DNA of 64,000 nt from a virus (IMGVR_UViG_3300017560_000002:3587-67586), one strand, 5' to 3'. Positions 1 through 64,000 are shown, counted from the stretch's first letter. The notes: a model not told the origin generated them from the sequence alone. Translations and numbers: made by a program.

Positions 1-791
1 TGCTGGTCCGGATAGCAGTCGCCGCTGCTCTTCTCGTCGCCGTTGACTACGATGTTCCCGACGCGGATCGGGAAAGTCCGCAGCACCAGCATCGTCGGGC
101 CGACGAAGTGCGGATGAATTCCGGCGTCGGAAGCCGCCTGCGCGATGGTGCAGTCGCGCGACGTGCAGTGAGGGTAGAACTTGTTGTTGAGGCCGAGACT
201 GATGCCCTGCGGCACTTCGACCAGTACCGACTTGCCCTTCTGCATCGCGTAGTTGATATCGATCCGACGGACGTAGTCGCGGAGCTTCGGATGGTTACGG
301 GCAATGACGCCCGATCGCGACACCTTGCGCGCCAGCGCTTCACCGACGCCCTTTCGGGTGCTGGAAATCGCCGACTGCGGACTGTCGTCCCGGTTCTCCG
401 CGTTCTTGCACTCTTCGGTGATAATCGCGGCGTTGGGATGAATATGGAACCGCTTCGAGTGGTGCCACGGCGCATCGCGGGCCACTTGGTCCATTTCGTT
501 GAAGAGCGTGGACACGTCGATGATCGAGCCGGCATTCAGGTAGACGAGCTCGGAGCCCGGATTGACGAGCGGATAAGTCGGCAGGTGGAATACGACCCGC
601 TTAAGGCCCTTGTGTAGCGAAGTGTGGCCGGCCTGCGCTCCCGCGTTGGTGGTCACGACGTCGAAATTCAGGCTGCGCTCCGCCATGCGGGCGGCCAGCC
701 ACGCCGCCGCTGCACCCTTGGCTTCGGAGCCGTACTGTCCACCGACGATAAACGACGCCTTACCCTTAACCAGAAAGTCCTCGATCTGCAT
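1..791 (-). CDS. purZ: PurZ, adenylosuccinate synthetase-like 2-aminoadenine pathway enzyme (3' end runs off the window)
   Basis: Hand translation from ATG 791: MQIEDFLVKGKASFIVGGQYGSEAKG..NAGAQAGHT..STRKGVG..EVPQGISLGLNNKFYPHCTSRDCT..VLRTFPIRVGN..SSGDCYPDQ. PurA-family motifs with Ser in place of the catalytic Asp of GDEGKG. Not in the ORF track. Confidence 0.92.
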   Translation of the reverse strand, partial: MQIEDFLVKGKASFIVGGQYGSEAKGAAAAWLAARMAERSLNFDVVTTNAGAQAGHTSLHKGLKRVVFHLPTYPLVNPGSELVYLNAGSIIDVSTLFNEMDQVARDAPWHHSKRFHIHPNAAIITEECKNAENRDDSPQSAISSTRKGVGEALARKVSRSGVIARNHPKLRDYVRRIDINYAMQKGKSVLVEVPQGISLGLNNKFYPHCTSRDCTIAQAASDAGIHPHFVGPTMLVLRTFPIRVGNIVVNGDEKSSGDCYPDQ

Positions 792-800
792 TGGTCGCCC

Positions 801-1256
801 CTATTCTCTCTTCAAGAATTCTTGAAGTAGCTCCGTGATCCGATAGTTTCGCACTTCGTGGTTTCCGACGAACGTGTGGTTTATTACGTCGGTTTTGTAC
901 TGGTTCATGGCGCACACGTACAGACCTAGGAAATTTAGGTGCAGGTGTCGCACCGTATTGCCGCCAATAAGCACGCCTGACAGCACGCCGCAAGTCATAC
1001 CGGCCGCGTCGTATTCCCCGAGGATCGTTTGCTGCGGCACCGTCACGTCGAGCTTGAATACGTGCGACTTCACCCGCTTGTTCTTCGGCGCAGCGAACTT
1101 GTTCAGCTTTACTTCGATCAGCGCCGCCTGATAGCCGGGCACCTTGACGAGCAGATCAGGAATGCCGATCAGGAAGCGGTTGGAGAGTTTGTGAGACGCG
1201 CCGCCGACTTCCTCGACTACGTCGATGATCAGACGCTGGAGTTCGACTTCTTTCAC
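801..1256 (-). CDS. PD-(D/E)XK nuclease, VRR-NUC/Holliday junction resolvase-like
   Basis: GIPDLLVK...LIEVK motif; lies in the replication cluster. Confidence 0.7.
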   Translation of the reverse strand: MKEVELQRLIIDVVEEVGGASHKLSNRFLIGIPDLLVKVPGYQAALIEVKLNKFAAPKNKRVKSHVFKLDVTVPQQTILGEYDAAGMTCGVLSGVLIGGNTVRHLHLNFLGLYVCAMNQYKTDVINHTFVGNHEVRNYRITELLQEFLKRE

Positions 1257-1412: not shown

Positions 1413-3575
1413 CTAGGCTTCGGCGCGTGCCTCACCCTTGGATTTCTTTCTGGTTCCGGTTCCGTTCGCACGCTTGGCGGGTGCGTTGGTAGCGGCGGGC
1501 TTCGGAGCTTCTTTCTTGGGCTTCTCTGGCCCGTACGTGGCGATTGCCCAGTTCGGGCCTTCACCCTCGTCGACGACGATCGGTATGTCGAGGGTGATCA
1601 CGTCGTCCGGACCAAACGACTGCATGATGTCGATGCAGCGGCGGTAGATCGGGCGGTCCTCTTCCGGAAACTGGAAGTCGACGGCGTCGTGGACCGTATT
1701 CAGCATATCGACTGCCGAATCCGCCTCGTCGAGGTATTCCGACATTTCCACGAGCTTGAGTTTCATGCAGTCGGCGTTACCGCCTTGGAGCGCCCGATTG
1801 AGCGCGACGTAGTCCTTGTTGGGATCAAGCAGCCGGCACCGCCGACCCAGCAGCGTAATCAGGTAGCCGCGCTGGCGCATACGCTTCGACATCCGCTTCT
1901 GGATGTCCTTGATTTCAGGCATTGCCCGGAAGTAATCGGCCCAGACGCGATCGACTTCCGCCGGGTCGACCTTGTACTTGCTGACGAGAACGCCCTTACC
2001 GCCGCCGGTAATAATCGTCTGGTTGATGCGCTTGGCGTAGGCGTTTCGGTAGTGCTTCTGTTCGTTTTCGTTCAGGTTGTGCCACTCGCGATTGGCGGCG
2101 ACGGCCACGGCGGTATGAGCGTCGATCGGCGGGCTCGACGTGTAGCCGTTGAAGAGCACCTTGCAGCGTGAATAGTAGGCCAGCAGCCGGGGTTCCATCT
2201 GGCTATAGTCGGTGGACGCCCATATCTTGCCTTCGTCGGGCACGAAAATCGATCGGAAGAGCCGCCCGATCTCTTCGTTGTGCTTAGGCACGGCCTGCAG
2301 GTTCGGACTGTCAGACGACAGCCGGCCCGTAATCGTGCCGAATTCGTCGTTTCTCAACTGGTTGAAATTCGTGTGGACGCGGCCGTTCCACAAGTGCGTC
2401 GTCATCAGCGGCTGGACGAACGTGTCGCGCAGCGTCATAAACTTGCGGAGCGACACGACGGCCCGGCCCGCGTCGTGGGTTTCGAGCCACGATTCCTGCA
2501 TCGACGGCTGACCCTGCGGAAAGCGCTTGCTGGCTGGCGTCATCGGCCAGTTGGTGCAGCCGTGCTTCTCCATCCAGTGCCGCACGTCGTCCGGGCTGCG
2601 GGCGTTGAAATCAGACGGAAACGAATTCAGGAGCCGCTCGATCTCACTCTTAATGTAAGCCCGCAGGCGGCTGAATTCACCCTCGTCGACCTTGATGCCC
2701 TTGACGCTCATGCGCGCCAGCACGTTGATCAGTCGGGATTCGACGTCCCATACGCGCTCAAGCTCCTGCAGCCGCAGTTGCTCCATCTGCCATTCGCGAA
2801 GCTGCCACGTGGTCGTACCGTCGCCGACGGCGTAATCCACCGCCATCGGATCGTCACCGGGCAAGCGCCAGTAGTGACCCATCGCCGACTTTCGTGCCGC
2901 CGCAGCTTCCGGGAACTTCTGGCACAGATACTCCACCATTTCCGCCGACTTCTTCGCCTGCACGCCGGCCACGTTGGCGCAGAACTCGAGCGAGAAGCGC
3001 CCCTGCCATTCGTTGATCAGACAGGCGTTGATCATAGTGTCTTCGGCGCGCGGCCGGAACCGATAGCCGACGCGCGACAGGAATTTCAGGTCGAAGTTTG
3101 CATGGTGAAATGTAAGCGTCGCGCCCTGTTTGTCGAACGCCTCGACGAGTTCCTTTTCGCCCGGCGCAAGCTTGCCGTCCCAACCCTCTGCGTGGGTCGG
3201 CCCGTTGTGTCCACCGACGTTCGCGTTACCAAGATGTCGGAATGGAACGTAGTAACTGTCCTGCGGCTTCGGACCGAACGTCAGCACGTATCCAACGATG
3301 TGGTTGCGCCGCCAGTCGAGGCCGCTGCCCTCCGTGTCAACGGCGATGTTGTTGCTGACCTTTAGCCGATTTAGGACTTCCTGCAGCCTGTCGGAGGCCG
3401 GATCGCCGCCTTTCTTCTTCGTTGAAGAACCGGACGACTTGGCTTGGGCTGTCGGTTTGTTTTCCGGCACATCGGTAGCTGATTTTGATTTTTTTGCCTT
3501 TGTAGTCGTGGACGACTGCGACGCCGGGACACTCTTCGCTGCTAAAGACTTCGAATTTCTGGCTTGGGCTGGCAT
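1413..3575 (-). CDS. Family A DNA polymerase with 3'-5' exonuclease domain (candidate DpoZ)
   Basis: Exo I DTEGSG, Exo II HHANFD, Exo III YAVGD; TITGRLSSDSPNLQ; motif A DYSQMEPR; motif C VHDA; no 5'-3' exonuclease domain. Confidence 0.93.
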   Translation of the reverse strand: MPAQARNSKSLAAKSVPASQSSTTTKAKKSKSATDVPENKPTAQAKSSGSSTKKKGGDPASDRLQEVLNRLKVSNNIAVDTEGSGLDWRRNHIVGYVLTFGPKPQDSYYVPFRHLGNANVGGHNGPTHAEGWDGKLAPGEKELVEAFDKQGATLTFHHANFDLKFLSRVGYRFRPRAEDTMINACLINEWQGRFSLEFCANVAGVQAKKSAEMVEYLCQKFPEAAAARKSAMGHYWRLPGDDPMAVDYAVGDGTTTWQLREWQMEQLRLQELERVWDVESRLINVLARMSVKGIKVDEGEFSRLRAYIKSEIERLLNSFPSDFNARSPDDVRHWMEKHGCTNWPMTPASKRFPQGQPSMQESWLETHDAGRAVVSLRKFMTLRDTFVQPLMTTHLWNGRVHTNFNQLRNDEFGTITGRLSSDSPNLQAVPKHNEEIGRLFRSIFVPDEGKIWASTDYSQMEPRLLAYYSRCKVLFNGYTSSPPIDAHTAVAVAANREWHNLNENEQKHYRNAYAKRINQTIITGGGKGVLVSKYKVDPAEVDRVWADYFRAMPEIKDIQKRMSKRMRQRGYLITLLGRRCRLLDPNKDYVALNRALQGGNADCMKLKLVEMSEYLDEADSAVDMLNTVHDAVDFQFPEEDRPIYRRCIDIMQSFGPDDVITLDIPIVVDEGEGPNWAIATYGPEKPKKEAPKPAATNAPAKRANGTGTRKKSKGEARAEA

Positions 3576-4096: not shown

Positions 4097-5107
4097 TCAG
4101 AACCGGCGGTGGCCGGTCTGCGGCTTACCGTCCTCGCCGTCGTCGTTCGCGCCGTCGACGTCCTCTTCCTGCAGCGTCTCGATGTCCTTGATCTGCAGGC
4201 CCGTGGTGCGGAATGCGTTATGCATGTCGCGATACAGGTTGTACTGGTCCTCGTCCTCGACCATGCCGTTGCCGACGACGTTGACCGAGTAGAAGTCCTG
4301 ATTCGCGGCGTTGTGGTCAAGGAACGGCGCGAAATCGAACTTGAGGCCGAATATCGGAAGCCGCGTGGTCTTGAGTTTGGTATTCAGCTTCCTGCCGACC
4401 TTGATCAGCGAGCGCTGGAAGGTGAATACTGCCGGCATCAGGTCCGGGTAGTCCGGGAACGCCAGCACGAAATTGTACATCAGCGTCGCGGCCGGCGGCG
4501 AATTCGAGTTGTCCGGGTCGGACGTTCCCCAGTTGGCGAGGCCCGATCTCTCGACGGTCGGCGCGAGTTTCCACGTGACGGTCTTGCCGCCCTGATTGCG
4601 GTTCAGCTGGACCGTGAATTCACCAGCCGACGGCGACCAGTGAATTCCGTCGTCGGCGCGCGCCAGAATGCCACCGCCGCTGTCCTGCGGACGCCACAGC
4701 AAGTAGCGGCGCTCCATGAACACCGGCACCGTCGTCAGCGGGCCTTCGAGTATCTGCTCGGCAGCCGTGTGGAAGAACTGGCCGGGACGCAGGTCGTTGT
4801 AGACGTGGAGCTCCGGCGACAGAGCCTGAATAAGTTTCAGGCGCGGCGTCTCCAAGTCCTCGCGCCCGATCGCTTCCTTGCCGACATCGACGTCCTGTCG
4901 CATGAAGGCCGGCATATTGGCGGTCGAAACCTCTGCCGGCGGCGGCGCGGGCTTGCGGTTGGCGGGCACCGATGACTTGTTGGCGGGCGCAGCGGCGCGG
5001 CGCTCCGGTTCGGGCTCCCGTCCCTGAGAGCGGGCAGCCTGTGCGGCACGGCCTTGCGGCTTTGCGGGAGCGGCGTTTCTCGACGCCGGGGTTGGTGTCT
5101 TTGCCAT
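4097..5107 (-). CDS. Putative ssDNA-binding/annealing replication protein
   Basis: ETPRLKLIQALSPE core, acidic C-terminus, position upstream of the polymerase. Confidence 0.55.
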   Translation of the reverse strand: MAKTPTPASRNAAPAKPQGRAAQAARSQGREPEPERRAAAPANKSSVPANRKPAPPPAEVSTANMPAFMRQDVDVGKEAIGREDLETPRLKLIQALSPELHVYNDLRPGQFFHTAAEQILEGPLTTVPVFMERRYLLWRPQDSGGGILARADDGIHWSPSAGEFTVQLNRNQGGKTVTWKLAPTVERSGLANWGTSDPDNSNSPPAATLMYNFVLAFPDYPDLMPAVFTFQRSLIKVGRKLNTKLKTTRLPIFGLKFDFAPFLDHNAANQDFYSVNVVGNGMVEDEDQYNLYRDMHNAFRTTGLQIKDIETLQEEDVDGANDDGEDGKPQTGHRRF

Positions 5108-5229
5108 CGTAGCTATCCTTTGGTTTCGATGTGCTATGGTTTCGCCTATTTCGGAGCGTCGGGAGTGGCACCGCTAGGATTTGGGGGGCCGAGAAGAGCC
5201 ACCCCCGACGTCCAAGCCGCTTGCGCGGC

Positions 5230-5799
5230 TTACTTGACCGCAGTAACGCTGGTAATGGGCAGATTGACCACGTTAAACAGGTCCTGCGGAAGCTCCTTGT
5301 TCTGGTTCTCCAGCATGTCGCGTGCCAGCGACGACAAGCTGCTGGCGTTGATGGTTTCCGACAACAGGTCGGGAAATTCCTTGCGTACCCACGCGTAAGC
5401 GTCTTCCTTGCGCTTGGAATTGATGCTGGCCCGCATCAGGTAGGCCACGCCGACGCGGAAGCCCTCAGCCAGCGGAACGTTGGTGATGCCGGCCTGCTCG
5501 AAGATTGCCGGAAGCTCCAGCGTCTTGTAGTGCTCGAAGGCCGACCCGACGCCCTTAACCTTGGCGTCGACCGTCGTAACCAGACGGTGCAGGACGGTGA
5601 AAGACCGGGCCAGATCGATCGCCCCGCGTTTCTTCGCAGCGGCGAGTTCCTTCTCCAGCTTCGGTATCAACTTTTCGATGGCGTCGGCGTGCTTGACGAT
5701 CTCCGACGCCACCGGTAGCGCGGCGAGAAGGGACTTCGGAAGGGGGGTAGGCGCGGGCTTAGCGGCAGCAGCCGCCTTAGGCTTGGAAGCCATCGGCAA
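5230..5799 (-). CDS. Conserved-looking phage hypothetical protein of the replication module
   Basis: Leader motif CGAGATAGGAG upstream; helical N-terminal half. Confidence 0.7.
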   Translation of the reverse strand: MPMASKPKAAAAAKPAPTPLPKSLLAALPVASEIVKHADAIEKLIPKLEKELAAAKKRGAIDLARSFTVLHRLVTTVDAKVKGVGSAFEHYKTLELPAIFEQAGITNVPLAEGFRVGVAYLMRASINSKRKEDAYAWVRKEFPDLLSETINASSLSSLARDMLENQNKELPQDLFNVVNLPITSVTAVK

Positions 5800-11920: not shown

Positions 11921-12327
11921 CGCCCGGCAGCTTCGCGCGCCAGCCTTTCCGCGCGTCTCTGCTGGGCTCCGGAGAGCTTCTTCGGTGGCCGGGTAGCTTT
12001 GGGCGCGGCCGGCTTTGCAGGCGGCTCGTCGGCCTTCCTTGCGGCTTTCTTGACCGCCTGCACGGTCGGTGGCAGCGACACTGCGACTTTCACCCGATCG
12101 ACTTCCGCAGCCGACCGACGGTCCGGTGTCTGAATTTCAGGCGGTGACGTGCCGACGTGGCGCAGGAATTCGTTGGTGACACACTGCGTCCGTCCGTTAT
12201 CCCAGCCTACTTCCGAGACTTCCAGACCGGGAACTTTGATGGTGCCCGTCATGCCGCTGTGCGTCGAGCCGATGTCGTAGACGCGGTCACCCTTCTGAAA
12301 AGCCGGCGGCGTCTTATCCTTCGGCAT
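11917..12327 (-). CDS. Hypothetical protein with an SH3-like N-terminus and a basic tail
   Basis: FQKGDRVY..G.I....EVGWDNG; Lys/Ala/Pro-rich C-terminus. Confidence 0.55.
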   Translation of the reverse strand: MPKDKTPPAFQKGDRVYDIGSTHSGMTGTIKVPGLEVSEVGWDNGRTQCVTNEFLRHVGTSPPEIQTPDRRSAAEVDRVKVAVSLPPTVQAVKKAARKADEPPAKPAAPKATRPPKKLSGAQQRRAERLAREAAGR

Positions 12328-12958
12328 GGCAAAATTCCCCGAGTTCCGCCTCGCCCATGCCGCAACGACGGCACAGACCTAGCACGACTTCGCCGTTCCG
12401 ATCCTTGATTGCGTCGGGTGCGTCCGCGTCACCGGTCTGGTACAAGTGGTGGCGGCCGGACGGTGGCGGCGATCCCTCCAGAATGGCCGTCTGCGGACCG
12501 GCCTGCTGGTCTTGGTACTTGCCTTCGTACGGCAGCGCCGTGCGGTGGTCCAGCTGGTGGAAGACGATCTGGGCAATTCCGGAGCCGGCTTCGACGTATA
12601 TCGGCACGGCCGGCGGCGTCTGTCCTCTGTCCGGTAGACGCGGTGGCCCGTGGTAAGTGATCTCGAGCGTCAGAAAGCCACGCCAGCCGGGCTCGATCAC
12701 AGTGTTCTGGACGAACAGGCCGCGACGCGCCCAAGTGCTCTTGTCGTGTACGACGGCGAGCACGGCACCCGGCATGTTGAAGCGCTCGACAGTGCTGGCT
12801 AGCACGAACTGACCGGGAAGCAACACGAGCTTCTCGGCAACGCGCACGTCGTAACCGGCCGGTCCCAGCCCGAAGGTCACGCCATTGTGGCGCGTCCTCT
12901 GGCAGAACGGTTCGACAGGCTGGAGCGCCTGAATGGTCTGTGCCGACAGGACCGTCAT
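12314..12958 (-). CDS. dcd: dCTP deaminase (trimeric dUTPase superfamily)
   Basis: AGYDVR, KSTWARRG, TVIEPGWRGFLTLE motifs. Confidence 0.85.
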   Translation of the reverse strand: MTVLSAQTIQALQPVEPFCQRTRHNGVTFGLGPAGYDVRVAEKLVLLPGQFVLASTVERFNMPGAVLAVVHDKSTWARRGLFVQNTVIEPGWRGFLTLEITYHGPPRLPDRGQTPPAVPIYVEAGSGIAQIVFHQLDHRTALPYEGKYQDQQAGPQTAILEGSPPPSGRHHLYQTGDADAPDAIKDRNGEVVLGLCRRCGMGEAELGEFCHAEG

Positions 12959-13536
12959 TGCTCGCTTCCCTCCCGCATCAGTTCCTTACGGAGGCACTCG
13001 GCGTCGGCAGCTTGAATTTCAGCCGCCCGCGCCTCGACGGCCGCTTCGGAGAACAGCCCTTCAAACAGGGCGCGTACGTCCTCCGGACTGCGGGCCGGAT
13101 CGGTCGGCTCCATTGCGAAAATCTCCAGAATTTCGCCCGCCTTGCCCTTCACCGGCCGGTTATCGATCAACTTACCGCACGCCAGCGCGTCCATATAGAT
13201 GGCGGCGTTGGCAAGGATGAAGCAACCGTGGTGAATGCCGGTCTTGGTGTCGTAGTCCTGCCCGTCCTTGAGAGCCTTGACGTGGCGCTCGAGCGCTTCG
13301 ATGTAGACGAGCGCGAGCACCTTTGCGACGCGGTAATTGTACGGCCCGTATTTGCCGGCACCGTTACCCATGCCGATCGCGGTAAAGACTTCGGCGGTGG
13401 CCGGCACGACGCCGAGCGGAACCTTGAGGTCCCCGAGACCGTCCTTAGGGTTGACGCTGTTCTCGGCGACGGGGCGCAGGCCGCTTACGTATCCGGGCGC
13501 GCGATATGGCGCGGCCGTTCTCTGGTTGTCCGACAT
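12955..13536 (-). CDS. DUF5664-type dATP/dGTP diphosphohydrolase
   Basis: NPKD..G..KVPL.VVP..GAGKYGPYNYR..ALERH...G.DYD..TG.HH...LAN pattern. Confidence 0.75.
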   Translation of the reverse strand: MSDNQRTAAPYRAPGYVSGLRPVAENSVNPKDGLGDLKVPLGVVPATAEVFTAIGMGNGAGKYGPYNYRVAKVLALVYIEALERHVKALKDGQDYDTKTGIHHGCFILANAAIYMDALACGKLIDNRPVKGKAGEILEIFAMEPTDPARSPEDVRALFEGLFSEAAVEARAAEIQAADAECLRKELMREGSEQ

Positions 13537-22533: not shown

Positions 22534-22787
22534 GCGGACCCTGAATTAGCCTTTGCAAGAATGGCGTCGCAGTGACACCGTAGCGGCTTACAAAAGCACA
22601 CGAGATCACGGCCGCGCAAGTTGGAAACGTCGAGTTTCGGCAGAATTTCACGCTCGAAGCGATCGCAGACGTCGTCACGCGTTCCGTCTCTGCCGATCCT
22701 AAACGGATTGCCGTACCTCGAGCCGCGCCCGCAGTAGACGGCGTCCCGTGGCGCGTCGCCGTGGTGTCTGTTGTAGACCTTCGGCAT
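22530..22787 (-). CDS. DUF4326-like protein
   Basis: AVYCGRGSRYGNPF..RGRDLVCFCKPLRCHCD. Confidence 0.8.
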   Translation of the reverse strand: MPKVYNRHHGDAPRDAVYCGRGSRYGNPFRIGRDGTRDDVCDRFEREILPKLDVSNLRGRDLVCFCKPLRCHCDAILAKANSGSA

Positions 22788-25093
22788 CAGAAGTCGTCCG
22801 AATTCCGGTTGCCTCGCTTGCCGTCCGGGTCCGGATCGTCGTTCTTGGTGTCATCAGACTTGGGCTCAGCGTCCCAGTTAAGCTCCTGACCGATATACTT
22901 CTCGAAATGCTTGCGACACTTGGCAAGCGTCGGCATGTTCATAATCGACGATTGTCGTCCCTGTCCGTCGCCCAGATTGTGAGCATGGCGCGAGACGTTC
23001 TCTTCCATGATCAGGTCATTGTAACGCTGACGCCGCAAATCGAGTTCCAGACCACCGAGCATCTGGCTTAAGGTGCTGCGTATCTGAAACGGGTTAATTG
23101 GCCTACGTATACCATTGGTGTCGAGATAAATGGCGTACGATGCTTCAAGCGCCCGCAGCGACACGACGTCCGGCCAGTGGTGACCCGCCGGCTTCGTCAT
23201 GCCGCGTAAATAACTGTCGAGCACGTGGCCAGTTTCCAGCCGCTTCTGCCACCATAGGACGATCGGGTCAAGATTAAGTTCTTTTACCTGCAGTAGTTCC
23301 TTGTTCTTAAGATTGGAGCGCGGCAGCTGCGGATCGTAGTCCATCGTCGTCAGATAGTGGTGGAGCGCCGCTGGCCCGCCGTTCTTCTCTTCGGCCAGCA
23401 CGGCGTCTCGCAACGTTTCGTTTTCCTTGACCGAACGATCACCCATCATAAAGACGGTGTACCGCCGGTCACCAAGTGCGACTGGCGCGGCGTGGGTCTT
23501 GTTTGACGACAGGATCAGTCGCGCATAGTTGCGGGCGCGTTCGGCATCAACGCCTTTAGCCTCGACCATCATGTATTCATCGGTGATCAGTGACCGGATG
23601 ATCGCGGCGTGGCGCTGGTCGCCACCGTACAGAGCCTCTTCGGAGTGAAGAAGTAAGGCCGTCGCCATGTGCTTGTTAAATTTGCCCCGAATGTGCTCTT
23701 CGTTCGACGCTACGACGTAGTTGGAGCCAAGGATGTGGCCGAAGTAGCGCACCAACAGCGACTTGCCGGCACCTTCTTCGCCGATCAGCACTGGCGCGGT
23801 GCCGCACTTGTTCTGTGGTTCCCGCAAGATATTGGCGAACCAGTGCAGCATCCAGACGTACTGCTCGTCGTTACCGCCGCAGATCACGTCGCGCAGCAAC
23901 GTCAGCCACGCCTCACACGAACCGTCTTTCGACGGCGGTGCCGCCCAGCCGGTCCAGCTATTTAGCACGTTCCGCTTGCCGACTTTGAAATCCGGCTCAC
24001 CGCCGGGAATAAAGCGCACGTCGTCGTAAGTACGGCGGCGCGGGCTGCTCAACCACAGCCGGGCCTTTGATACCGGCTTGTCGCTGCCCGGTATGTTGAT
24101 GTAGTCGTTGGAATACCGGTTGAGAAAGTCTTCCTTGTGGAGAAACACGGGCGGCTCACCGGGTGGAACTTCGGTGTTGGCGATGCGAAACGAGCCGGCT
24201 ACCATCGACACCGCGAACGTCTCGTTAAACTCGCCGACCCACGCCACGTCGGGTGCACCCAGCCAACGCAGGATGTAGTCGACGACGATGCCTTTGCTCT
24301 CACCCAGCTGCTCCCGCAGCTTGACGGAGCCCGTGAGCATCTGGCCCTGATCACCGCGACGATACGTGGCCTTGATCGTCGGAATGCGAGACTTGTCCTT
24401 GTCGCCCGTGTAGTCCATCACGGCCTGTATGATTTCGCAGGCTTCCTCGACGGGCCAATCGTTGCGGTAGAACATGCCCGACAGGTGCTTGCACGGCTCG
24501 TTGTGGTAGCCCTCCTGCCAGATGTGGCGAGCGATCACGGAGCAGATGGCGACTTTCGTTGCGGCTTTCCTCAAGACTTCGGACGTGACCGTCGGGACGG
24601 TCGGAAACGGAACTGTGCTCCACTTGATGTCTTCGCCCGTGCCTTCGTGGACCGAACCCGGCATTACGGTCTGGTGCCCGCCGTCGCCCCGGAGCTCGAG
24701 GATCGTCTCTTTCGACATCGGGTCGATGAAGGCGATCTTTTCAAACGTCGGCTCTTCGACCCGGTACAGGCGGTGAGAATCGACCTTGCTGGCGCGGCCG
24801 AATACGGCCTGTGTAGGCGGCAGGAACAGCGAGCCGAAATGAATTCCCTCCGGGCTGTCAAGGTCGGCGTCGATCGGGCCTGAATGGGCCGGGCCGGTGA
24901 CGAGGCCAAGGCCGTAGTCGTTGGCGTGCCAGAGGGAATCGTCAGGCGGGACGTATCCGGGGTCAACGTAGTTGCGGTTGATCGCGGCCTTTGACCGGTG
25001 AAACAGAGGCACCGGCTTGAAGTCATTCCGGCGCACCCACTGCAGGGTCTGGTTGATTCCGGACGCGGTCGATCCCTTAGGCTGGTCAGGCAT
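22787..25093 (-). CDS. Primase-polymerase fused to an SF3 helicase (DUF5906-like)
   Basis: N-terminal GLVTG..IDADLDS, HRLYR, LELRGDGGHQTVMPGSVH; Walker A GEEGAGKS; Walker B HSEE. Confidence 0.85.
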   Translation of the reverse strand: MPDQPKGSTASGINQTLQWVRRNDFKPVPLFHRSKAAINRNYVDPGYVPPDDSLWHANDYGLGLVTGPAHSGPIDADLDSPEGIHFGSLFLPPTQAVFGRASKVDSHRLYRVEEPTFEKIAFIDPMSKETILELRGDGGHQTVMPGSVHEGTGEDIKWSTVPFPTVPTVTSEVLRKAATKVAICSVIARHIWQEGYHNEPCKHLSGMFYRNDWPVEEACEIIQAVMDYTGDKDKSRIPTIKATYRRGDQGQMLTGSVKLREQLGESKGIVVDYILRWLGAPDVAWVGEFNETFAVSMVAGSFRIANTEVPPGEPPVFLHKEDFLNRYSNDYINIPGSDKPVSKARLWLSSPRRRTYDDVRFIPGGEPDFKVGKRNVLNSWTGWAAPPSKDGSCEAWLTLLRDVICGGNDEQYVWMLHWFANILREPQNKCGTAPVLIGEEGAGKSLLVRYFGHILGSNYVVASNEEHIRGKFNKHMATALLLHSEEALYGGDQRHAAIIRSLITDEYMMVEAKGVDAERARNYARLILSSNKTHAAPVALGDRRYTVFMMGDRSVKENETLRDAVLAEEKNGGPAALHHYLTTMDYDPQLPRSNLKNKELLQVKELNLDPIVLWWQKRLETGHVLDSYLRGMTKPAGHHWPDVVSLRALEASYAIYLDTNGIRRPINPFQIRSTLSQMLGGLELDLRRQRYNDLIMEENVSRHAHNLGDGQGRQSSIMNMPTLAKCRKHFEKYIGQELNWDAEPKSDDTKNDDPDPDGKRGNRNSDDF

Positions 25094-28401: not shown

Positions 28402-29064
28402 ATGACGAGCAGAACGCAATGGATTTCGGGTACTCGTTTCTGGAAAGACCCGCAAGTCAAACAACGGCTGACCGAATTGTGGCGTAATCCGGACATACCG
28501 GCGTCGGAGATTGCGAAGCTTCTAAGTAAGGAATTCGGCGTCGACATTTCCACCAACTCAGTGATCGGCAAGGTCCATCGGCTCGGCCTGCACGACGAAT
28601 ACCCGCGTCACAACGGCGCGCGCGTCATGCAGATCAGAGGCCGCAACGGAACGGCGATGTCGCCCGCGATGCGTGCCCAGCAGCGAGAGCGCCGGTTGCT
28701 GCAGATCGAGCAGCAACGCGCCGCACGGGCGGCGACTGTAAAGTCGGAGACAGACCAGCATGGTAGGGTCCTCGCCGCCTTCCGGCCCGCCACTGTTCAG
28801 CACGAAATGAAGCGTGGCGACGACGGCAAGCTGATCCCGACGATACCGGAACTTCCGGAAGAGGAACCCGATGCGCCGTTCGTCCTGCTTACTGGCGTCA
28901 GTCGCACGGCCTGCCGCTGGCCGATGCCCGGTGTCGACGACGATGGCGTGTCGCACCTATGTGGTCAGAAGTCGGCTTTCGGTGCGTACTGCGCGCGCCA
29001 TGCCGCGATCGGCTACGTCCGCCCGCCGTCGGCGTCGCGCATGGAACGTTTCTGGTGTGTGTAG
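28402..29064 (+). CDS. gcrA: GcrA-like cell-cycle regulator
   Basis: LTELW..ASEIA..NSVIGKVHRLGL N-terminus; CRWP..LCG..YCARH C-terminus. Confidence 0.85.
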   Translation: MTSRTQWISGTRFWKDPQVKQRLTELWRNPDIPASEIAKLLSKEFGVDISTNSVIGKVHRLGLHDEYPRHNGARVMQIRGRNGTAMSPAMRAQQRERRLLQIEQQRAARAATVKSETDQHGRVLAAFRPATVQHEMKRGDDGKLIPTIPELPEEEPDAPFVLLTGVSRTACRWPMPGVDDDGVSHLCGQKSAFGAYCARHAAIGYVRPPSASRMERFWCV

Positions 29065-60519: not shown

Positions 60520-60755
60520 TGGATCGCCCCGGCTCGCCGTAAGGCGTCGAGGACATGCGGTTCGATCCGGGCCTTGACGGACGGCGACACTCGCTGGCGC
60601 TTGGCTGCCGTCAGGAGCGACGACAGCTGCTTGTTGTGTACTACTGCGATGTAGGACTTTCCCCATTTAAACATGGTGGACGGCCACTGGACCAGCCACG
60701 TCTGCGGCGTGGTCCACTTTTCGGAGATCAGCCTCGCCGCCGGCTTCTTCCTCAT
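60516..60755 (-). CDS. Basic hypothetical protein
   Basis: Operon packing. Confidence 0.55.
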   Translation of the reverse strand: MRKKPAARLISEKWTTPQTWLVQWPSTMFKWGKSYIAVVHNKQLSSLLTAAKRQRVSPSVKARIEPHVLDALRRAGAIQ

Positions 60756-62326
60756 TTCACGCCCTCGACGTTGTTGATCATAACCAGCGAGCCCTGCGAG
60801 CGCGTGACCGCGACGTAAATCAGGTTCTGCTCCTGCACCTTCTGCCATGCCTGCCGAGCCCACGGCGACGGCATATAGTCGTTACGGCCGAGAATGAAGA
60901 CGCGCTCCCACTCCCGACCCTTCGACTTGTGGACGGTCGACAGGGTCAGCGTCGGACGGGTTTCCTTGTCGCCGTCGGTGAACATCGCGGCGATCCGGTT
61001 GCGCAGTTCCTCGACCGACGAAGCCGGCGGCTGGCTGTCCATGATCACGAAGATCGTGTCGACCCGATCAGAGACGGCTTCGGCTTGAGTTTCCTTGCCC
61101 TTCGCCGTCAGCTTGGCGCACTCGACCTGCCGGTAATGCTCGAGCCGGTCCCGCAGTTCGTCCATATCCCGGACCTTCCAGCGGTTGACGAGGCGCAGCA
61201 AGCCGGCACCGATCTCGCGGCCTTCGACGTGGCAGGCGACGCCTTGCTTAATCAGGCTGTAGGCCAGCGACACCAGCGGCTTGGTCTTGCGGCACAGGAT
61301 GGCATCCGACGCTTTCAGGGTCTGAACGCTGTCCTTCTGCAGGAAGTCCTCGAAGTTGATTTCACCGACTTCACCCTGCGGCGCGGTTTCATGGGCCTGA
61401 ATGTGGTTGACGACTTCCTGCGCCACGGCGACGACCGACTTGGGGCAGCGATAGGTAATGGTCAGGGGCAGCGTGACGCAGCTGAATTCCCGGCTGATCT
61501 TGTCGATCGCGTCGTTGTCCGCGCCGGTAAAGCCGTAGATCGCCTGATGACGGTCGCCGACCCACACCGAGCGGCCGTTGCGCTTGAGCATCTTACGCGC
61601 CAGCGCGCGACGGGCCGGGTTGGTGTCCTGCGCCTCGTCGATGAAAACCCAGTCATTCTCCCAAACCCGAATGCCGGACACGACGGGCAGATAAATCATG
61701 TCGTCGAAGTCCACGACCTTCGGCCCAAGCTGGCGGTGATATTTCAGGGTCCGGATAGCGAGTTCGATACCGGCCTCGACCGTGACTTCCTGACCCTCGA
61801 CGGCGGCGAGTTCGTTCTCTTCCGGCTCGTCGGCCTCGAGCTCGTAGGCCATGTCGAAGTGGTCGACGATGTCGTGCCACAGCGAGCGGTCCTCGATCGA
61901 GCCGAACAGGCCGATGGCGCGCTGCTTGGCAAGCGACACCAGCTTGAGGGTGAAGCCGTCAAGGCGCTCCGGTGAATTCACCTTACGGAAGTTGGCGACG
62001 GTCATGTCGCGCTTGAGATCGGCGTCGACCTTGACGTTCGGATAAGCCTGCCGCCACGCGTTGAGGCCGAACGAATGAAACGTGCCGATGCGGACGCGGT
62101 TGCCGAAGCCCAGCTTCGCGACTTTCGCCTTGATCTCGTCGGCGATCTTCTTGTTGTATGCGGCGAAGGCGACAGTGCCGTCCGTGTGCTTAAGGGCCTC
62201 GACCAGCGTAGTGGTCTTGCCGGCACCGGCAACGGCCTCGACGAACGCCGACCCGTGACCGGTCTTAACCCAGTCGATGACGGCGGCTTGCTGGACGGAC
62301 GGAACGAAAGGCTTCGGGGAATTCAT
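60752..62326 (-). CDS. SF1 (UvrD/Rep-like) helicase
   Basis: AVAGAGKTT, IDEAQD, VGDRHQAIYGFTGA, YRCP, STVHKSKGREW, YVAVTR. Confidence 0.92.
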   Translation of the reverse strand: MNSPKPFVPSVQQAAVIDWVKTGHGSAFVEAVAGAGKTTTLVEALKHTDGTVAFAAYNKKIADEIKAKVAKLGFGNRVRIGTFHSFGLNAWRQAYPNVKVDADLKRDMTVANFRKVNSPERLDGFTLKLVSLAKQRAIGLFGSIEDRSLWHDIVDHFDMAYELEADEPEENELAAVEGQEVTVEAGIELAIRTLKYHRQLGPKVVDFDDMIYLPVVSGIRVWENDWVFIDEAQDTNPARRALARKMLKRNGRSVWVGDRHQAIYGFTGADNDAIDKISREFSCVTLPLTITYRCPKSVVAVAQEVVNHIQAHETAPQGEVGEINFEDFLQKDSVQTLKASDAILCRKTKPLVSLAYSLIKQGVACHVEGREIGAGLLRLVNRWKVRDMDELRDRLEHYRQVECAKLTAKGKETQAEAVSDRVDTIFVIMDSQPPASSVEELRNRIAAMFTDGDKETRPTLTLSTVHKSKGREWERVFILGRNDYMPSPWARQAWQKVQEQNLIYVAVTRSQGSLVMINNVEGVK

Positions 62327-62351
62327 GGCAGGTCTCCTATGTCGAATGTGG

Positions 62352-62380
62352 AGTAAAACACGCCGCCGGCCGGCGGGCAA
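62352..62380 (-). promoter_or_regulatory. sigma70-like extended -10 promoter
   Basis: TTGCCC-N17-TTTACT. Confidence 0.6.
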
Positions 62381-63529: not shown

Positions 63530-64000
63530 TTCGTCTCTCCTTCGTTTTGCGCACGGCGTCCACCAGAGTGTCCAGTGAATCCGCCATTTCCTTTTTCTCC
63601 TGCAGGATTTCAACGGCTCGCTCTTCAACCGGGCTCGCCACGAAATCCCAGCAAGTACAGGTTTCGTCCTGATCGCCGCGATGATTACGGTCCTCCATCT
63701 GCGAGCGGTAGTAATAGCTGAAACCGTTCTCGTAGAACGCCGTCTTGGTGCAGCGATCGCCTTCCGATCCGATCAGCGTGTGGCCTCGAGCCGTCGCCAC
63801 TTCCTGTCCGACGAGCACGCGACACTTGCTGTCCTCGTTGAAGCGCTTTTTCTCCTGTACGATCAGTTCCGCGTCCATCCGACCCTGAATATAGGCCGGC
63901 TCGTAACCTTCCTTGCGGAACTGGTCGAGCAACATTTTGCCGGTTTCGGTAAAGTGGTGCACGACGATCGACTTGCCGGGACCGTCGATCATCTGCTTGA
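63519..64000 (-). CDS. SF2 (SNF2-like) helicase, C-terminal part (5' end outside the window)
   Basis: Helicase-C motifs: RVLVGQ..RGHTL, FYE..F..YRSQMEDRNHRGDQ. Confidence 0.8.
   Translation of the reverse strand, partial: KQMIDGPGKSIVVHHFTETGKMLLDQFRKEGYEPAYIQGRMDAELIVQEKKRFNEDSKCRVLVGQEVATARGHTLIGSEGDRCTKTAFYENGFSYYYRSQMEDRNHRGDQDETCTCWDFVASPVEERAVEILQEKKEMADSLDTLVDAVRKTKERRNGW

What the first reader, a model, noticed from the sequence alone, without database searches (positions are those of the whole stretch)
1..791. PurZ gene missed by the ORF track: likely 2-aminoadenine (Z) genome
Seen: the minus-strand ORF from ATG 791 runs off the window and translates to a PurA-family enzyme whose P-loop reads GGQYGSEAKG. 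Known: the Asp-to-Ser change in GDEGKG marks PurZ, which converts dGMP towards dZTP so that Z replaces A in phage DNA and blocks many restriction enzymes. Inference: this alphaproteobacterial phage makes Z-DNA. A family A polymerase lies about 600 bp upstream in the same transcription direction.
Basis: partly seen in the sequence, partly recalled or inferred. Interest (0 to 1): 0.9.

Follow-up and report, generated by a model that had tools for sequence, protein, structure and literature searches.

The report
Intact PurZ Z-DNA gene cluster
The gene cut off by the window edge is an intact PurZ, and with the helper genes beside it this uncultured 67.6-kb phage very probably replaces adenine with 2-aminoadenine (Z) in its DNA, which is a new example of an already known system and not a new kind.

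Summary
Window 3-791 (-) encodes the first 263 residues of an intact 360-aa PurA-family protein with the P-loop GGQYGSEAKG. The gene ends 291 bp beyond the window.

In a careful tree the protein falls inside the PurZ clade (UFBoot 100 / SH-aLRT 99) with S-2L, phiVC8, SH-Ab 15497, PMBT28, Bm1 and Ochrobactrum phage OH. It is separate from PurZ0 and from canonical PurA.

Directly downstream lie a MazZ-2-like gene and a DatZ that keeps the W-x-I specificity pair. Upstream lies a family A polymerase whose best matches are DpoZ. A DUF5664 dATP/dGTP pyrophosphohydrolase and a dCTP deaminase lie about 12 kb away. About 30 IMG/VR contigs share the same gene order.

A Z-genome is therefore very likely but has not been shown chemically.

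Caveats:
- Ser-for-Asp alone is not diagnostic. At least 556 prokaryotic chromosomal paralogues carry it.
- PurZ and PolA both score below NCBIfam's curated cut-offs.
- The NTP-donor motif reads H-x-D-Y, between PurZ0 and PurZ.
- Polymerase motif B reads Q/T, unlike the known DpoZ types.

This scan has noted PurZ before on other DNA: 245 notes in at least 187 genomes. Verdict: new member of a known kind, moderate-to-low interest.

The parts
1..791 (-). purZ, first 263 of 360 codons (ATG at 791). The gene continues 291 bp past the window start to genome C1:3295, which is L002:3295-4377(-).
   Evidence: ORF and P-loop GGQYGSEAKG. phrog_1211 at 5.2e-60 and PF00709 at 2.5e-31. PDB phiVC8 PurZ 6fm1 at 1.1e-42 and S-2L PurZ 7odx at 2.7e-36. 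PurZ clade at 100/99. Catalytic K16, H41, T129, R143, Q224, T239, R303 and R305 are kept and D13 is Ser.
801..1256 (-). 151-aa ORF between polA and purZ, possibly a PD-(D/E)xK-type nuclease.
   Evidence: Conserved in this position in about 20 IMG/VR relatives at 30-51% identity. Only weak family signal: phrog_93 endonuclease at E 0.002, and OH gp30 'putative nuclease' at E 0.033. The function is inferred.
1413..3575 (-). Family A DNA polymerase with a 3'-5' exonuclease domain, a DpoZ candidate. Motif B reads KRINQTIITG.
   Evidence: PF00476 at 3.8e-54 and PF01612 at 1.7e-07. Best PDB hit is DpoZ of phiVC8, 7pbk, at 3.7e-42 against Klenow at 1.6e-36. Best NCBIfam hit is NF038380 phage_DpoZ_1 at 295 bits, below its cut-off of 500. 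Sister to the OH polymerase at 99*.
4097..5799 (-). Pam3 gp34-like and gp33-like replication-module genes, part of the conserved block upstream of polA.
   Evidence: PF23977 at 2.5e-36 and PF23984 at 7.9e-21. Syntenic in about 25 IMG/VR relatives. Also found in OH, phiVC8, ZP6 and the non-Z phage PaMx11.
12955..13536 (-). Stand-alone DUF5664 protein, a candidate second dATP/dGTP pyrophosphohydrolase.
   Evidence: PF18909 dGTP_diPhyd_N at 9.1e-17. phrog_801 dATP/dGTP pyrophosphohydrolase at 3.8e-12. 36% identity to Wayne gp50 (E 2e-9) and 31% to the N-terminus of SH-Ab 15497 gp40 (E 9e-8).
12314..12958 (-). dCTP deaminase-like gene overlapping the end of the DUF5664 gene.
   Evidence: PF22769 at 3.3e-20. 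phrog_1663 at 3.2e-46. TIGR02274 at 86.3 bits against a cut-off of 92.8.
28402..29064 (+). GcrA homologue, a host indicator and not part of the Z pathway.
   Evidence: PF07750 at 7.5e-16.

Best explanation
The ORF is the 5' two-thirds of an intact purZ gene for succino-amino-deoxyadenylate synthase. It lies in a complete, circularly assembled 67.6-kb genome of an uncultured tailed phage, probably of an alphaproteobacterium.

The gene order is polA - small nuclease-like ORF - purZ - mazZ-2-like - datZ, the arrangement seen in Ochrobactrum phage OH, phiVC8 and Burkholderia phage Bm1.

Proposed mechanism, inferred from the characterised homologues:

1. The MazG-like protein, and probably the separate DUF5664 protein, turn dGTP (and dATP) into monophosphates.
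2. PurZ condenses dGMP with aspartate, using an NTP donor, to give dSMP.
3. Host PurB and host kinases finish dZTP. No phage PurB was found.
4. DatZ destroys dATP.
5. The phage polymerase copies the genome with Z in place of A, which protects it from many restriction enzymes.

Shown here: gene integrity, family placement, conserved catalytic and specificity residues, and conserved synteny. Inferred: every enzymatic activity and the presence of Z in virion DNA.
For: PurZ:
- Intact 360-aa gene.
- Best PHROG, PDB and NCBIfam matches are all PurZ.
- Careful IQ-TREE places it in the PurZ clade at UFBoot 100 / SH-aLRT 99, on a branch of 0.91. It is apart from PurZ0 (100/99) and from canonical PurA (100/100). 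Two quick trees with different sampling agree.
- The residues reported to distinguish PurZ (preprint 10.1101/2025.10.22.683976) are kept. In phiVC8 numbering these are S14, an aromatic at position 12, P233, Y244, W252, G256, T262 and Y298.

DatZ, L002:2279-2881(-):
- phrog_7076 dATP triphosphohydrolase at 1.7e-18 and PF12917 at 5.5e-18.
- HD ligands are kept, and W22/I24 align to S-2L W20/I22.

MazZ-2-like, L002:2847-3302(-):
- It sits between purZ and datZ, as in all Z-clusters (PMC8342488).
- 35% identity to OH MazZ-2, E 8e-9.
- The ExxE...ExxD acidic residues are invariant across 11 homologues.
- The top Foldseek hits of the AF2 model are all MazG-family proteins.

Other evidence:
- The whole block is syntenic in about 30 IMG/VR contigs.
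- A DUF5664 gene is present.
- The PolA's best hits are DpoZ, and like every other PurZ-linked PolA aligned here it has lost Klenow Y766.
- Literature: datZ, mazZ and purZ alone put Z into E. coli DNA (PMC8342488).
Against: - No chemical evidence. The sequence reads A whether or not the base is Z.
- PurZ scores 226 bits on NF038379 against a cut-off of 300. PolA scores 295 bits on NF038380 against a cut-off of 500. Identity to any characterised PurZ is only 32-40%.
- The MazZ-2-like protein has no Pfam, PHROG or NCBIfam hit. Its fold matches are weak: Foldseek E about 0.2, pLDDT 73.
- The NTP-base motif reads S-H-V-D-Y. It keeps the Asp that aligns with the guanine-reading D333 of E. coli PurA and with PurZ0, and it replaces phiVC8 F295 with His. 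The phosphate donor is therefore uncertain.
- PurZ-clade genes with the full signature also sit in housekeeping regions of Micavibrio and Bdellovibrionales chromosomes, with no DatZ or DpoZ within the 4 kb of flank fetched. Clade membership alone does not prove a Z-genome.
Confidence: 0.8

Rival explanations
1. This is a PurZ-clade enzyme, but the phage does not fully replace A with Z. Substitution could be partial, or the module could mainly reshape purine dNTP pools, or the enzyme could serve another nucleotide role as the chromosomal homologues in predatory bacteria may do.
For: - PurZ-clade genes occur in non-phage, housekeeping contexts without DatZ or DpoZ nearby.
- The donor motif H-x-D-Y and the P-loop GSEAKG differ from all characterised PurZ enzymes.
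- The PolA motif-B residues Q/T have never been tested.
- PurZ and PolA score below the curated HMM cut-offs.
Against: - The full purZ-mazZ-datZ trio is present and conserved in order across about 30 relatives.
- DatZ keeps the dATP-specificity pair W/I.
- An extra dATP/dGTP pyrophosphohydrolase domain is encoded.
- The trio alone suffices for Z incorporation in E. coli (PMC8342488).
- S-2L achieves full substitution without a Z-specific polymerase (PMC10201439).
Confidence: 0.15
2. It is an ordinary adenylosuccinate synthetase (PurA) carried as an auxiliary metabolic gene to boost host AMP synthesis.
For: The protein matches Pfam PF00709. JGI annotates the metagenomic homologues as 'adenylosuccinate synthase'.
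Against: - The catalytic Asp13 is Ser.
- Canonical bacterial PurAs are far weaker PDB matches, 1e-13 or worse against 1e-42 for PurZ.
- Canonical PurA forms a separate 100/100 clade.
- TIGR00184 purA scores 111 bits against a cut-off of 396.
- The neighbours are DatZ and a MazG-like gene, not purine-biosynthesis genes.
Confidence: 0.02
3. It is a PurZ0-type enzyme: GTP-dependent, and working with DutZ and DmtZ partners.
For: The P-loop GSEAKG is identical to PurZ0 of Wayne and Archimedes. The Asp aligned with the guanine-reading PurA D333 is kept, as in PurZ0. A DUF5664 gene and a dUTPase-fold gene are present.
Against: - The tree separates it from PurZ0 with full support.
- Its PDB score against PurZ0 7vf6 is 104 bits, against 149 for phiVC8 PurZ.
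- It has the PurZ-only Y244 insertion and Y298, where PurZ0 has a gap and Gln.
- Its partners are DatZ and MazZ-2, the PurZ set described in PMC12884076.
- The dUTPase-fold gene is a dCTP deaminase by PHROG and TIGRFAM.
- No NDT/DmtZ hit passed the family cut-off.
Confidence: 0.03

Closest known systems
Z-cluster of Ochrobactrum phage vB_OspP_OH (Wolominvirus OH, NC_070933)
   Same: It is the nearest cultured relative for PurZ (40% identity), PolA (31%), the gp34-like protein (34%) and MazZ-2 (35%). The gene order is the same: polA - small ORFs - purZ - mazZ-2 - (small ORF) - datZ - helicase. The host is an alphaproteobacterium.
   Different: OH is a 41-kb podophage and this genome is 67.6 kb, with no close cultured relative by TerL (51% identity or less). 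OH PurZ has the classic GSTGKG P-loop and F-M-N-Y donor motif, where this one has GSEAKG and H-V-D-Y. In OH PolA motif B, M and S align with Klenow F762 and Y766, where this PolA has Q and T. This MazZ-2-like protein has an extra N-terminal region of about 50 aa.
[quoted passage not shown]
   Same: Same clade at 100/99 support. Same catalytic residues, with Ser replacing PurA Asp13. The residues that accommodate the 2-amino group are kept (S14, aromatic 12, T262). It is followed by mazZ and datZ.
   Different: Only 32-34% identity. phiVC8 F295 and N297 are His and Asp here, and PurA N38 is Gln. S-2L uses a PrimPol, whereas this phage has a PolA.
[quoted passage not shown]
   Same: Ser in the P-loop, an identical GSEAKG motif, and retention of the Asp aligned with PurA D333. 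A DUF5664 protein is encoded in the same genome.
   Different: PurZ0 is a separate clade at 100/99. This genome has none of the DutZ/DmtZ partner set and has DatZ and MazZ-2 instead.
DpoZ, phiVC8-like (PDB 7PBK; PolA cluster #18 of PMC10201439)
   Same: It is the best PDB and NCBIfam match. It has an exonuclease plus polymerase architecture, is encoded next to purZ, and has lost Klenow Y766.
   Different: This PolA falls in a separate 23-row clade with OH (99*). That clade is not resolved as sister to the phiVC8-like clade. Holding all PurZ-linked PolAs together as one clade is neither supported nor rejected (AU p 0.27). At motif-B positions B3/B4 it has Q/T, where phiVC8-like DpoZ has L/F.

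Membership tests
PurZ (succino-amino-deoxyadenylate synthase) | PurA Asp13 is replaced by Ser in the P-loop. | tested here: met
   GGQYGSEAKG; Ser aligns with phiVC8 S14 and E. coli D13. The feature is necessary but not specific: PurZ0 and at least 556 confirmed prokaryotic paralogues share it.
PurZ (succino-amino-deoxyadenylate synthase) | Falls in the PurZ clade, apart from PurA and PurZ0. | tested here: met
   Careful IQ-TREE of 52 rows: the 30-row PurZ clade has 100/99 support and includes S-2L, phiVC8, Bm1, PMBT28, SH-Ab 15497 and OH. PurZ0 is 100/99 and PurA is 100/100 elsewhere in the tree.
PurZ (succino-amino-deoxyadenylate synthase) | Scores above NCBIfam's curated cut-off for NF038379. 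| tested here: not met
   NF038379 is the best-scoring family at 226.1 bits, but the cut-off is 300. The next family, NF003295, scores 153 bits. The model is of NCBI type 'exception'. I assume, without having tested it, that it was built from classic PurZ; I did not score any classic PurZ against it.
PurZ (succino-amino-deoxyadenylate synthase) | Residues that stack on the adenine of the ATP donor (phiVC8 F295, Y298). | tested here: inconclusive
   Y298 is kept. F295 is His, and the intervening Asn is Asp, the residue aligned with the guanine-reading D333 of PurA. Among the 120 nearest homologues the motif is FxDY in 53, HxDY in 33 and FxNY in 26.
PurZ (succino-amino-deoxyadenylate synthase) | Uses dGMP plus Asp to form dSMP. 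| not testable with these tools
   This needs an enzyme assay.
Z-cluster (datZ-mazZ-purZ, PMC8342488) | A mazZ gene lies between purZ and datZ on one strand. | tested here: met
   L002:3295-4377(-), L002:2847-3302(-) and L002:2279-2881(-) are contiguous or overlapping. The order is conserved in IMG/VR relatives.
DatZ (HD-domain dATP triphosphohydrolase) | HD metal ligands plus the S-2L W20/I22 specificity pair. | tested here: met
   H36, H67, D68 and D133 are invariant, and W22-S-I24 aligns with S-2L W20-G-I22. phrog_7076 at 1.7e-18. The direct PDB hit to DatZ 6zpa is weak (2e-4), and YfbR scores better (1e-8).
MazZ-2 (MazG-like (d)GTP pyrophosphohydrolase) | Four conserved acidic residues (ExxE...ExxD) on an all-alpha MazG fold. 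| tested here: met
   E87, E90, E106 and D109 are invariant. 35% identity to OH MazZ-2, E 8e-9. PDB 2p06 at 3.8e-5. Top Foldseek hits are all MazG family, but at E about 0.2. No HMM library hit.
DpoZ (Z-preferring family A polymerase) | Member of the phiVC8-like or the Wayne-like DpoZ clade. | tested here: inconclusive
   Best PDB hit 7pbk and best NCBIfam hit NF038380 (295 bits, below the cut-off of 500). The tree places it with OH in a clade distinct from the phiVC8-like and Wayne-like groups. AU test of one PurZ-linked clade gives p 0.27.
DpoZ (Z-preferring family A polymerase) | Phe at motif-B position B4 (Klenow Y766), shared by both known DpoZ clusters (PMC10201439). | tested here: not met
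   Thr aligns with Y766 and Gln with F762. The Tyr is lost, as in all PurZ-linked PolAs aligned here, but the replacement differs.
Z-genome phage | 2-aminoadenine replaces adenine in virion DNA. | not testable with these tools
   This needs LC-MS, restriction-resistance or raw-signal data.

The most novel reading that the evidence does not exclude
This uncultured lineage (about 30 IMG/VR contigs, more than 100 protein clusters) may be a third, biochemically distinct solution for Z-DNA. Two features suggest this.

- Its PurZ lies inside the ATP-type clade but keeps the guanine-reading Asp and the PurA/PurZ0-type P-loop. It could use GTP or both donors, which would blur the proposed one-way PurZ0-to-PurZ transition.
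- Its family A polymerase carries Gln/Thr where Klenow has F762/Y766. That would make it a new Z-adapted PolA type beside the phiVC8-like and Wayne-like DpoZ.
Probability: 0.3. Interest if true: 0.5.

Novelty: new member of a known kind. Interest (0 to 1): 0.3.

Why it matters
Z-genome phages are resistant to about half of 147 tested restriction enzymes (PMC12944874), and their enzymes are tools for building ZTGC-DNA. This genome adds a complete, well-resolved example from a lineage with no cultured representative, probably infecting Alphaproteobacteria.

It offers three concrete variants to test:
- a PurZ with an H-x-D-Y donor motif;
- a MazZ-2 with an N-terminal extension;
- a PurZ-linked polymerase with Q/T in motif B.

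It does not change the picture of how Z-DNA is made. The practical lesson for the scan is that the Ser-for-Asp P-loop is widespread in cellular paralogues and must be backed by phylogeny and by the presence of DatZ and MazZ.

Tried and rejected
I used the search for related loci on IMG/VR instead.
- One search failed on syntax.
- One search was a mis-specified AU test: I left the window's own PolA out of the constrained set. Its p of 3e-56 should be ignored. One search is the correct test.
- No DUF550 (PF04447) hit in the genome, but this search is uninformative because its control found the family nowhere. No PurB/Lyase_1 in the genome. No tRNAs.
- A weak NDT hit (PF05014, E 0.003, below the cut-off) lies about where two ORFs overlap. 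One gave no Pfam or PHROG hit and the other is a YpsA/SLOG-DprA-like protein, so I found no DmtZ.
- The dUTPase-fold hit is a dCTP deaminase, not a DutZ.
- Foldseek on the MazZ-2 model gave no hit at E 0.001 or better, and S-2L MazZ was not among the listed hits.
- I considered and rejected canonical PurA and PurZ0 membership.
- I did not fold PurZ itself, because a ligand-free model could not settle donor specificity.

Full report
**1. Observation**

The minus-strand ORF 3..791 is real. It starts at ATG 791 and reads MQIEDFLVKGKASFIVGGQYGSEAKG.... The 263 in-window residues match Pfam PF00709 at 2.3e-28 and PHROG phrog_1211, the PurZ family, at 1.9e-44.

The window is bases 3587-67586 of a 67,586-bp IMG/VR virus record. 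CheckV rates the record 100% complete. Its 'direct terminal repeat' is an exact 41-bp end overlap, which I read as a circular assembly. GC content is 60.8%.

Reading past the window edge (L002 = C1:1-6000) gives an uninterrupted 360-aa gene, L002:3295-4377(-). The 'broken beyond the window' refutation therefore fails.

**2. What the protein is**

Against solved structures the order of hits is:

| Structure | E-value |
|---|---|
| phiVC8 PurZ (6fm1) | 1.1e-42 |
| S-2L PurZ (7odx) | 2.7e-36 |
| 7vf6, deposited as 'PurA-like adenylosuccinate synthetase'; named PurZ0 of Gordonia phage Archimedes in PMC12884076 | 5.5e-29 |
| 5k7x and 2d7u, adenylosuccinate synthetase; 5k7x is named Pyrococcus horikoshii PurA in PMC12884076 | about 9e-27 |
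| other adenylosuccinate synthetases, including E. coli PurA | 1e-14 or worse |

The best NCBIfam family is NF038379 (PurZ) at 226 bits, well ahead of archaeal-type PurA at 153 bits. It is still below the curated cut-off of 300.

I built trees from these sequences:
- six known phage PurZ;
- two PurZ0;
- E. coli PurA and four other canonical PurAs;
- DPANN archaeal and bacterial Ser-P-loop homologues from GTDB genomes;
- metagenomic and IMG/VR relatives.

A careful IQ-TREE run (52 rows, LG+C20+F+G4 PMSF) gives a 30-row PurZ clade with UFBoot 100 / SH-aLRT 99 on a branch of 0.91. The clade contains S-2L, phiVC8, Bm1, PMBT28, SH-Ab 15497, OH and the window protein. PurZ0 (100/99) and canonical PurA (100/100) are elsewhere. 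Two quick trees with different sampling agree.

Within the PurZ clade the window protein belongs to a 100/100 group of uncultured sequences at 52-61% identity (more than 100 protein clusters). This group joins OH and a group of MAG sequences in a moderately supported subclade (93/87).

**3. Residues**

- The PurA catalytic residues K16, H41, T129, R143, Q224, T239, R303 and R305 are all present. D13 is Ser and N38 is Gln.
- In phiVC8 numbering, the residues reported to distinguish PurZ are kept: S14, an aromatic at position 12, P233, Y244, W252, G256, T262 and Y298 (preprint 10.1101/2025.10.22.683976). Y244 lies in an insertion that PurZ0 and the bacterial paralogues lack.
- The P-loop is GSEAKG, as in PurZ0 and PurA. 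Classic PurZ has GSTGKG.
- The donor-base motif reads S-H-V-D-Y, where phiVC8 has N-F-C-N-Y. F295 is His. The next-but-one residue is Asp, which aligns with D333 of E. coli PurA (the guanine-reading Asp of the NKxD-like motif, from my own knowledge) and with the Asp of PurZ0.
- Among the 120 nearest homologues the motif is FxDY in 53, HxDY in 33 and FxNY in 26.

The phosphate donor (ATP, dATP or GTP) is therefore undetermined.

**4. Neighbourhood**

The next genes downstream on the same strand are these.

- A 151-aa protein, L002:2847-3302(-); 163 aa if read from the upstream ATG.
  - No HMM-library hit.
  - It matches the MazG-like AF_0060 (2p06, 3.8e-5).
  - It is 35% identical to OH MazZ-2 (E 8e-9).
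  - Its ExxE...ExxD acidic residues are invariant across 11 IMG/VR homologues.
  - The AF2 model (pLDDT 73) finds only MazG-family proteins at the top of Foldseek, though at E about 0.2.
- A 200-aa HD protein, L002:2279-2881(-).
  - phrog_7076 dATP triphosphohydrolase at 1.7e-18 and PF12917 at 5.5e-18.
  - The HD ligands are kept, and the W-x-I pair aligns with S-2L DatZ W20/I22.

This is the datZ-mazZ-purZ 'Z-cluster' that sufficed to put Z into E. coli DNA (PMC8342488).

Upstream are a 151-aa ORF (window 801-1256) and the family A polymerase (window 1413-3575). OH, phiVC8 and Bm1 have the same overall order.

tblastn against 80 IMG/VR loci shows the block gp33-like / gp34-like / PolA / orf151 / PurZ / MazZ-2-like / DatZ in the same order and orientation in about 30 contigs of up to 68 kb.

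Two further nucleotide-pool genes lie about 12 kb away:
- a stand-alone DUF5664 protein (PF18909, 9.1e-17; related to Wayne gp50 and to SH-Ab 15497 gp40), a domain shown to hydrolyse dATP and dGTP in PMC12884076;
- a dCTP deaminase.

No PurB was found, which fits reliance on host enzymes as reported for phiVC8. No DmtZ was found. The DUF550 search found nothing, but its control also found the family nowhere, so it is uninformative.

**5. Polymerase**

The best PDB hit is DpoZ of phiVC8 (7pbk, 3.7e-42, against Klenow at 1.6e-36). The best NCBIfam family is phage_DpoZ_1 at 295 bits, below the cut-off of 500. The top phage hits are PurZ phages.

In a 41-row tree the window PolA sits in a 23-row clade with OH (99*). 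That clade is distinct from the phiVC8-like DpoZ clade (100*) and from a clade of six other phage PolAs (99*). Five of those six genomes were searched and lack PF00709; Birtae was not searched. The three clades form an unresolved trichotomy. An AU test does not reject one clade for all PurZ-linked PolAs (p 0.27).

Motif B residues aligned with Klenow F762 and Y766:

| Group | F762 | Y766 |
|---|---|---|
| Klenow | F | Y |
| The six non-PurZ-linked phage PolAs | F or L | Y |
| phiVC8-like DpoZ | L | F |
| Wayne | F | F |
| OH | M | S |
| Window clade | Q | T |

The Phe at B4 was already noted as shared by both DpoZ clusters (PMC10201439; PMC8599892). The Q/T and M/S variants appear in none of the passages I read from the Z-genome and DpoZ papers consulted here.

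**6. Host**

A GcrA homologue is present (PF07750, 7.5e-16), and the nearest cultured relatives of PurZ, PolA and the gp34-like protein are from an Ochrobactrum phage. Both fit an alphaproteobacterial host, but this is an inference. By TerL there is no close cultured relative (51% identity or less).

**7. A caution on the diagnostic**

The pattern [GD]xQ[FWY]GS[ET][GA]KG matched at least 600 stretches in GTDB species genomes. Of these, 556 were confirmed as relatives, many on megabase-size contigs. Five genomes checked each also have a canonical PurA. These sequences fall outside the PurZ clade.

A smaller group does fall inside the PurZ clade with the full residue signature: an Arcobacter MAG, Micavibrio, and MAGs labelled Alphaproteobacteria, Proteobacteria and Bdellovibrionales. 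None has DatZ, MazZ or PolA within the 4 kb of flank fetched. On a 1-Mb Micavibrio contig the gene follows a tandem-MazG gene and lies among HflX, inositol monophosphatase and M20 peptidase genes.

The Ser alone, and even clade membership alone, therefore does not prove a Z-genome. Here the conserved partners carry the argument.

**8. Verdict**

- I put about 0.8 on this being a functional Z-DNA module in a Z-genome phage.
- It is a new member of a known kind.
- PurZ phages are known to be diverse and widespread: 151 sequences in the PurZ group and at least seven gene-sharing groups of Z-phages in PMC12884076, plus environmental dZ contigs in the 2025 preprint.
- This scan has already noted PurZ in at least 187 genomes.
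- The remaining interest lies in the lineage-specific PurZ donor motif and polymerase motif B.

Noticed in passing
L014-L093 (GTDB genome loci); e.g. L024 (Binatia, 3.6-Mb chromosome), L089 (Mesorhizobium qingshengii), L076 (Pirellulaceae SH501), L035 (Mariprofundus erugo): A PurA-like paralogue about 340-360 aa long, with Ser in place of Asp13 (GSEGKG), is widespread in bacterial and DPANN archaeal chromosomes. At least 556 loci were confirmed. Five genomes checked each also have a canonical PurA. These sequences fall outside the PurZ clade, and their function is unknown to me.
   Followed up: partly
L015:3093-5098(+) (Micavibrio, 1.0-Mb contig); L019:3977-5023(+) (Bdellovibrionales, 610-kb contig); also L014, L016-L018: Genes inside the PurZ clade, with the full PurZ residue signature, sit in housekeeping contexts of genomes labelled Micavibrio and Bdellovibrionales (predatory groups). 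In L015 the gene starts 3 nt after a tandem-MazG gene and lies among HflX, inositol monophosphatase and M20 peptidase genes. No DatZ, MazZ-2 or PolA lies within the 4 kb of flank fetched. This may be a cellular use of PurZ chemistry.
   Followed up: partly
window 1995-2055 (-), PolA motif B: Motif B reads KRINQTIITG. Gln and Thr replace Klenow F762 and Y766. All 30 PurZ-linked PolAs that group with phiVC8 or OH, and Wayne, have lost Y766 (to F, S or T), while the six non-PurZ-linked phage PolAs and Klenow keep it. The window/OH clade is separate from both described DpoZ clusters.
   Followed up: partly
window 12314-13536 (-): A stand-alone DUF5664 (dGTP_diPhyd_N) gene overlaps a dCTP deaminase gene about 12 kb from purZ. 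DUF5664 is usually fused to DUF550 in PurZ phages, or occurs in PurZ0 phages.
   Followed up: partly
L002:3295-4377(-), residues about 310-314 (S-H-V-D-Y): The PurZ donor-base motif keeps the Asp aligned with the guanine-reading residue of PurA and PurZ0, together with the Tyr of ATP-type PurZ. In the 120 nearest homologues the motif is FxDY in 53, HxDY in 33 and FxNY in 26.
   Followed up: partly
window 28402-29064 (+): A GcrA cell-cycle regulator homologue (PF07750, 7.5e-16) lies between terL and the portal gene. This supports an alphaproteobacterial host.
   Followed up: partly
genome C1:1-41 and C1:67546-67586 (window 63960-64000): The 'direct terminal repeat' is an exact 41-bp overlap, the size of an assembler k-mer. 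The record is probably a circular or permuted assembly and not a genome with true DTR ends. The SNF2 helicase ORF at C1:1-978(-) runs off the record start.
   Followed up: no
window 60752-62380 (-) and 22787-25093 (-): A UvrD/PcrA-type helicase, as found next to DpoZ in PMBT28 and SH-Ab 15497, and a 768-aa protein containing DUF5906. I read the latter as D5-like primase-helicase from my own knowledge, not from a tool result. Both complete the replication module.
   Followed up: no
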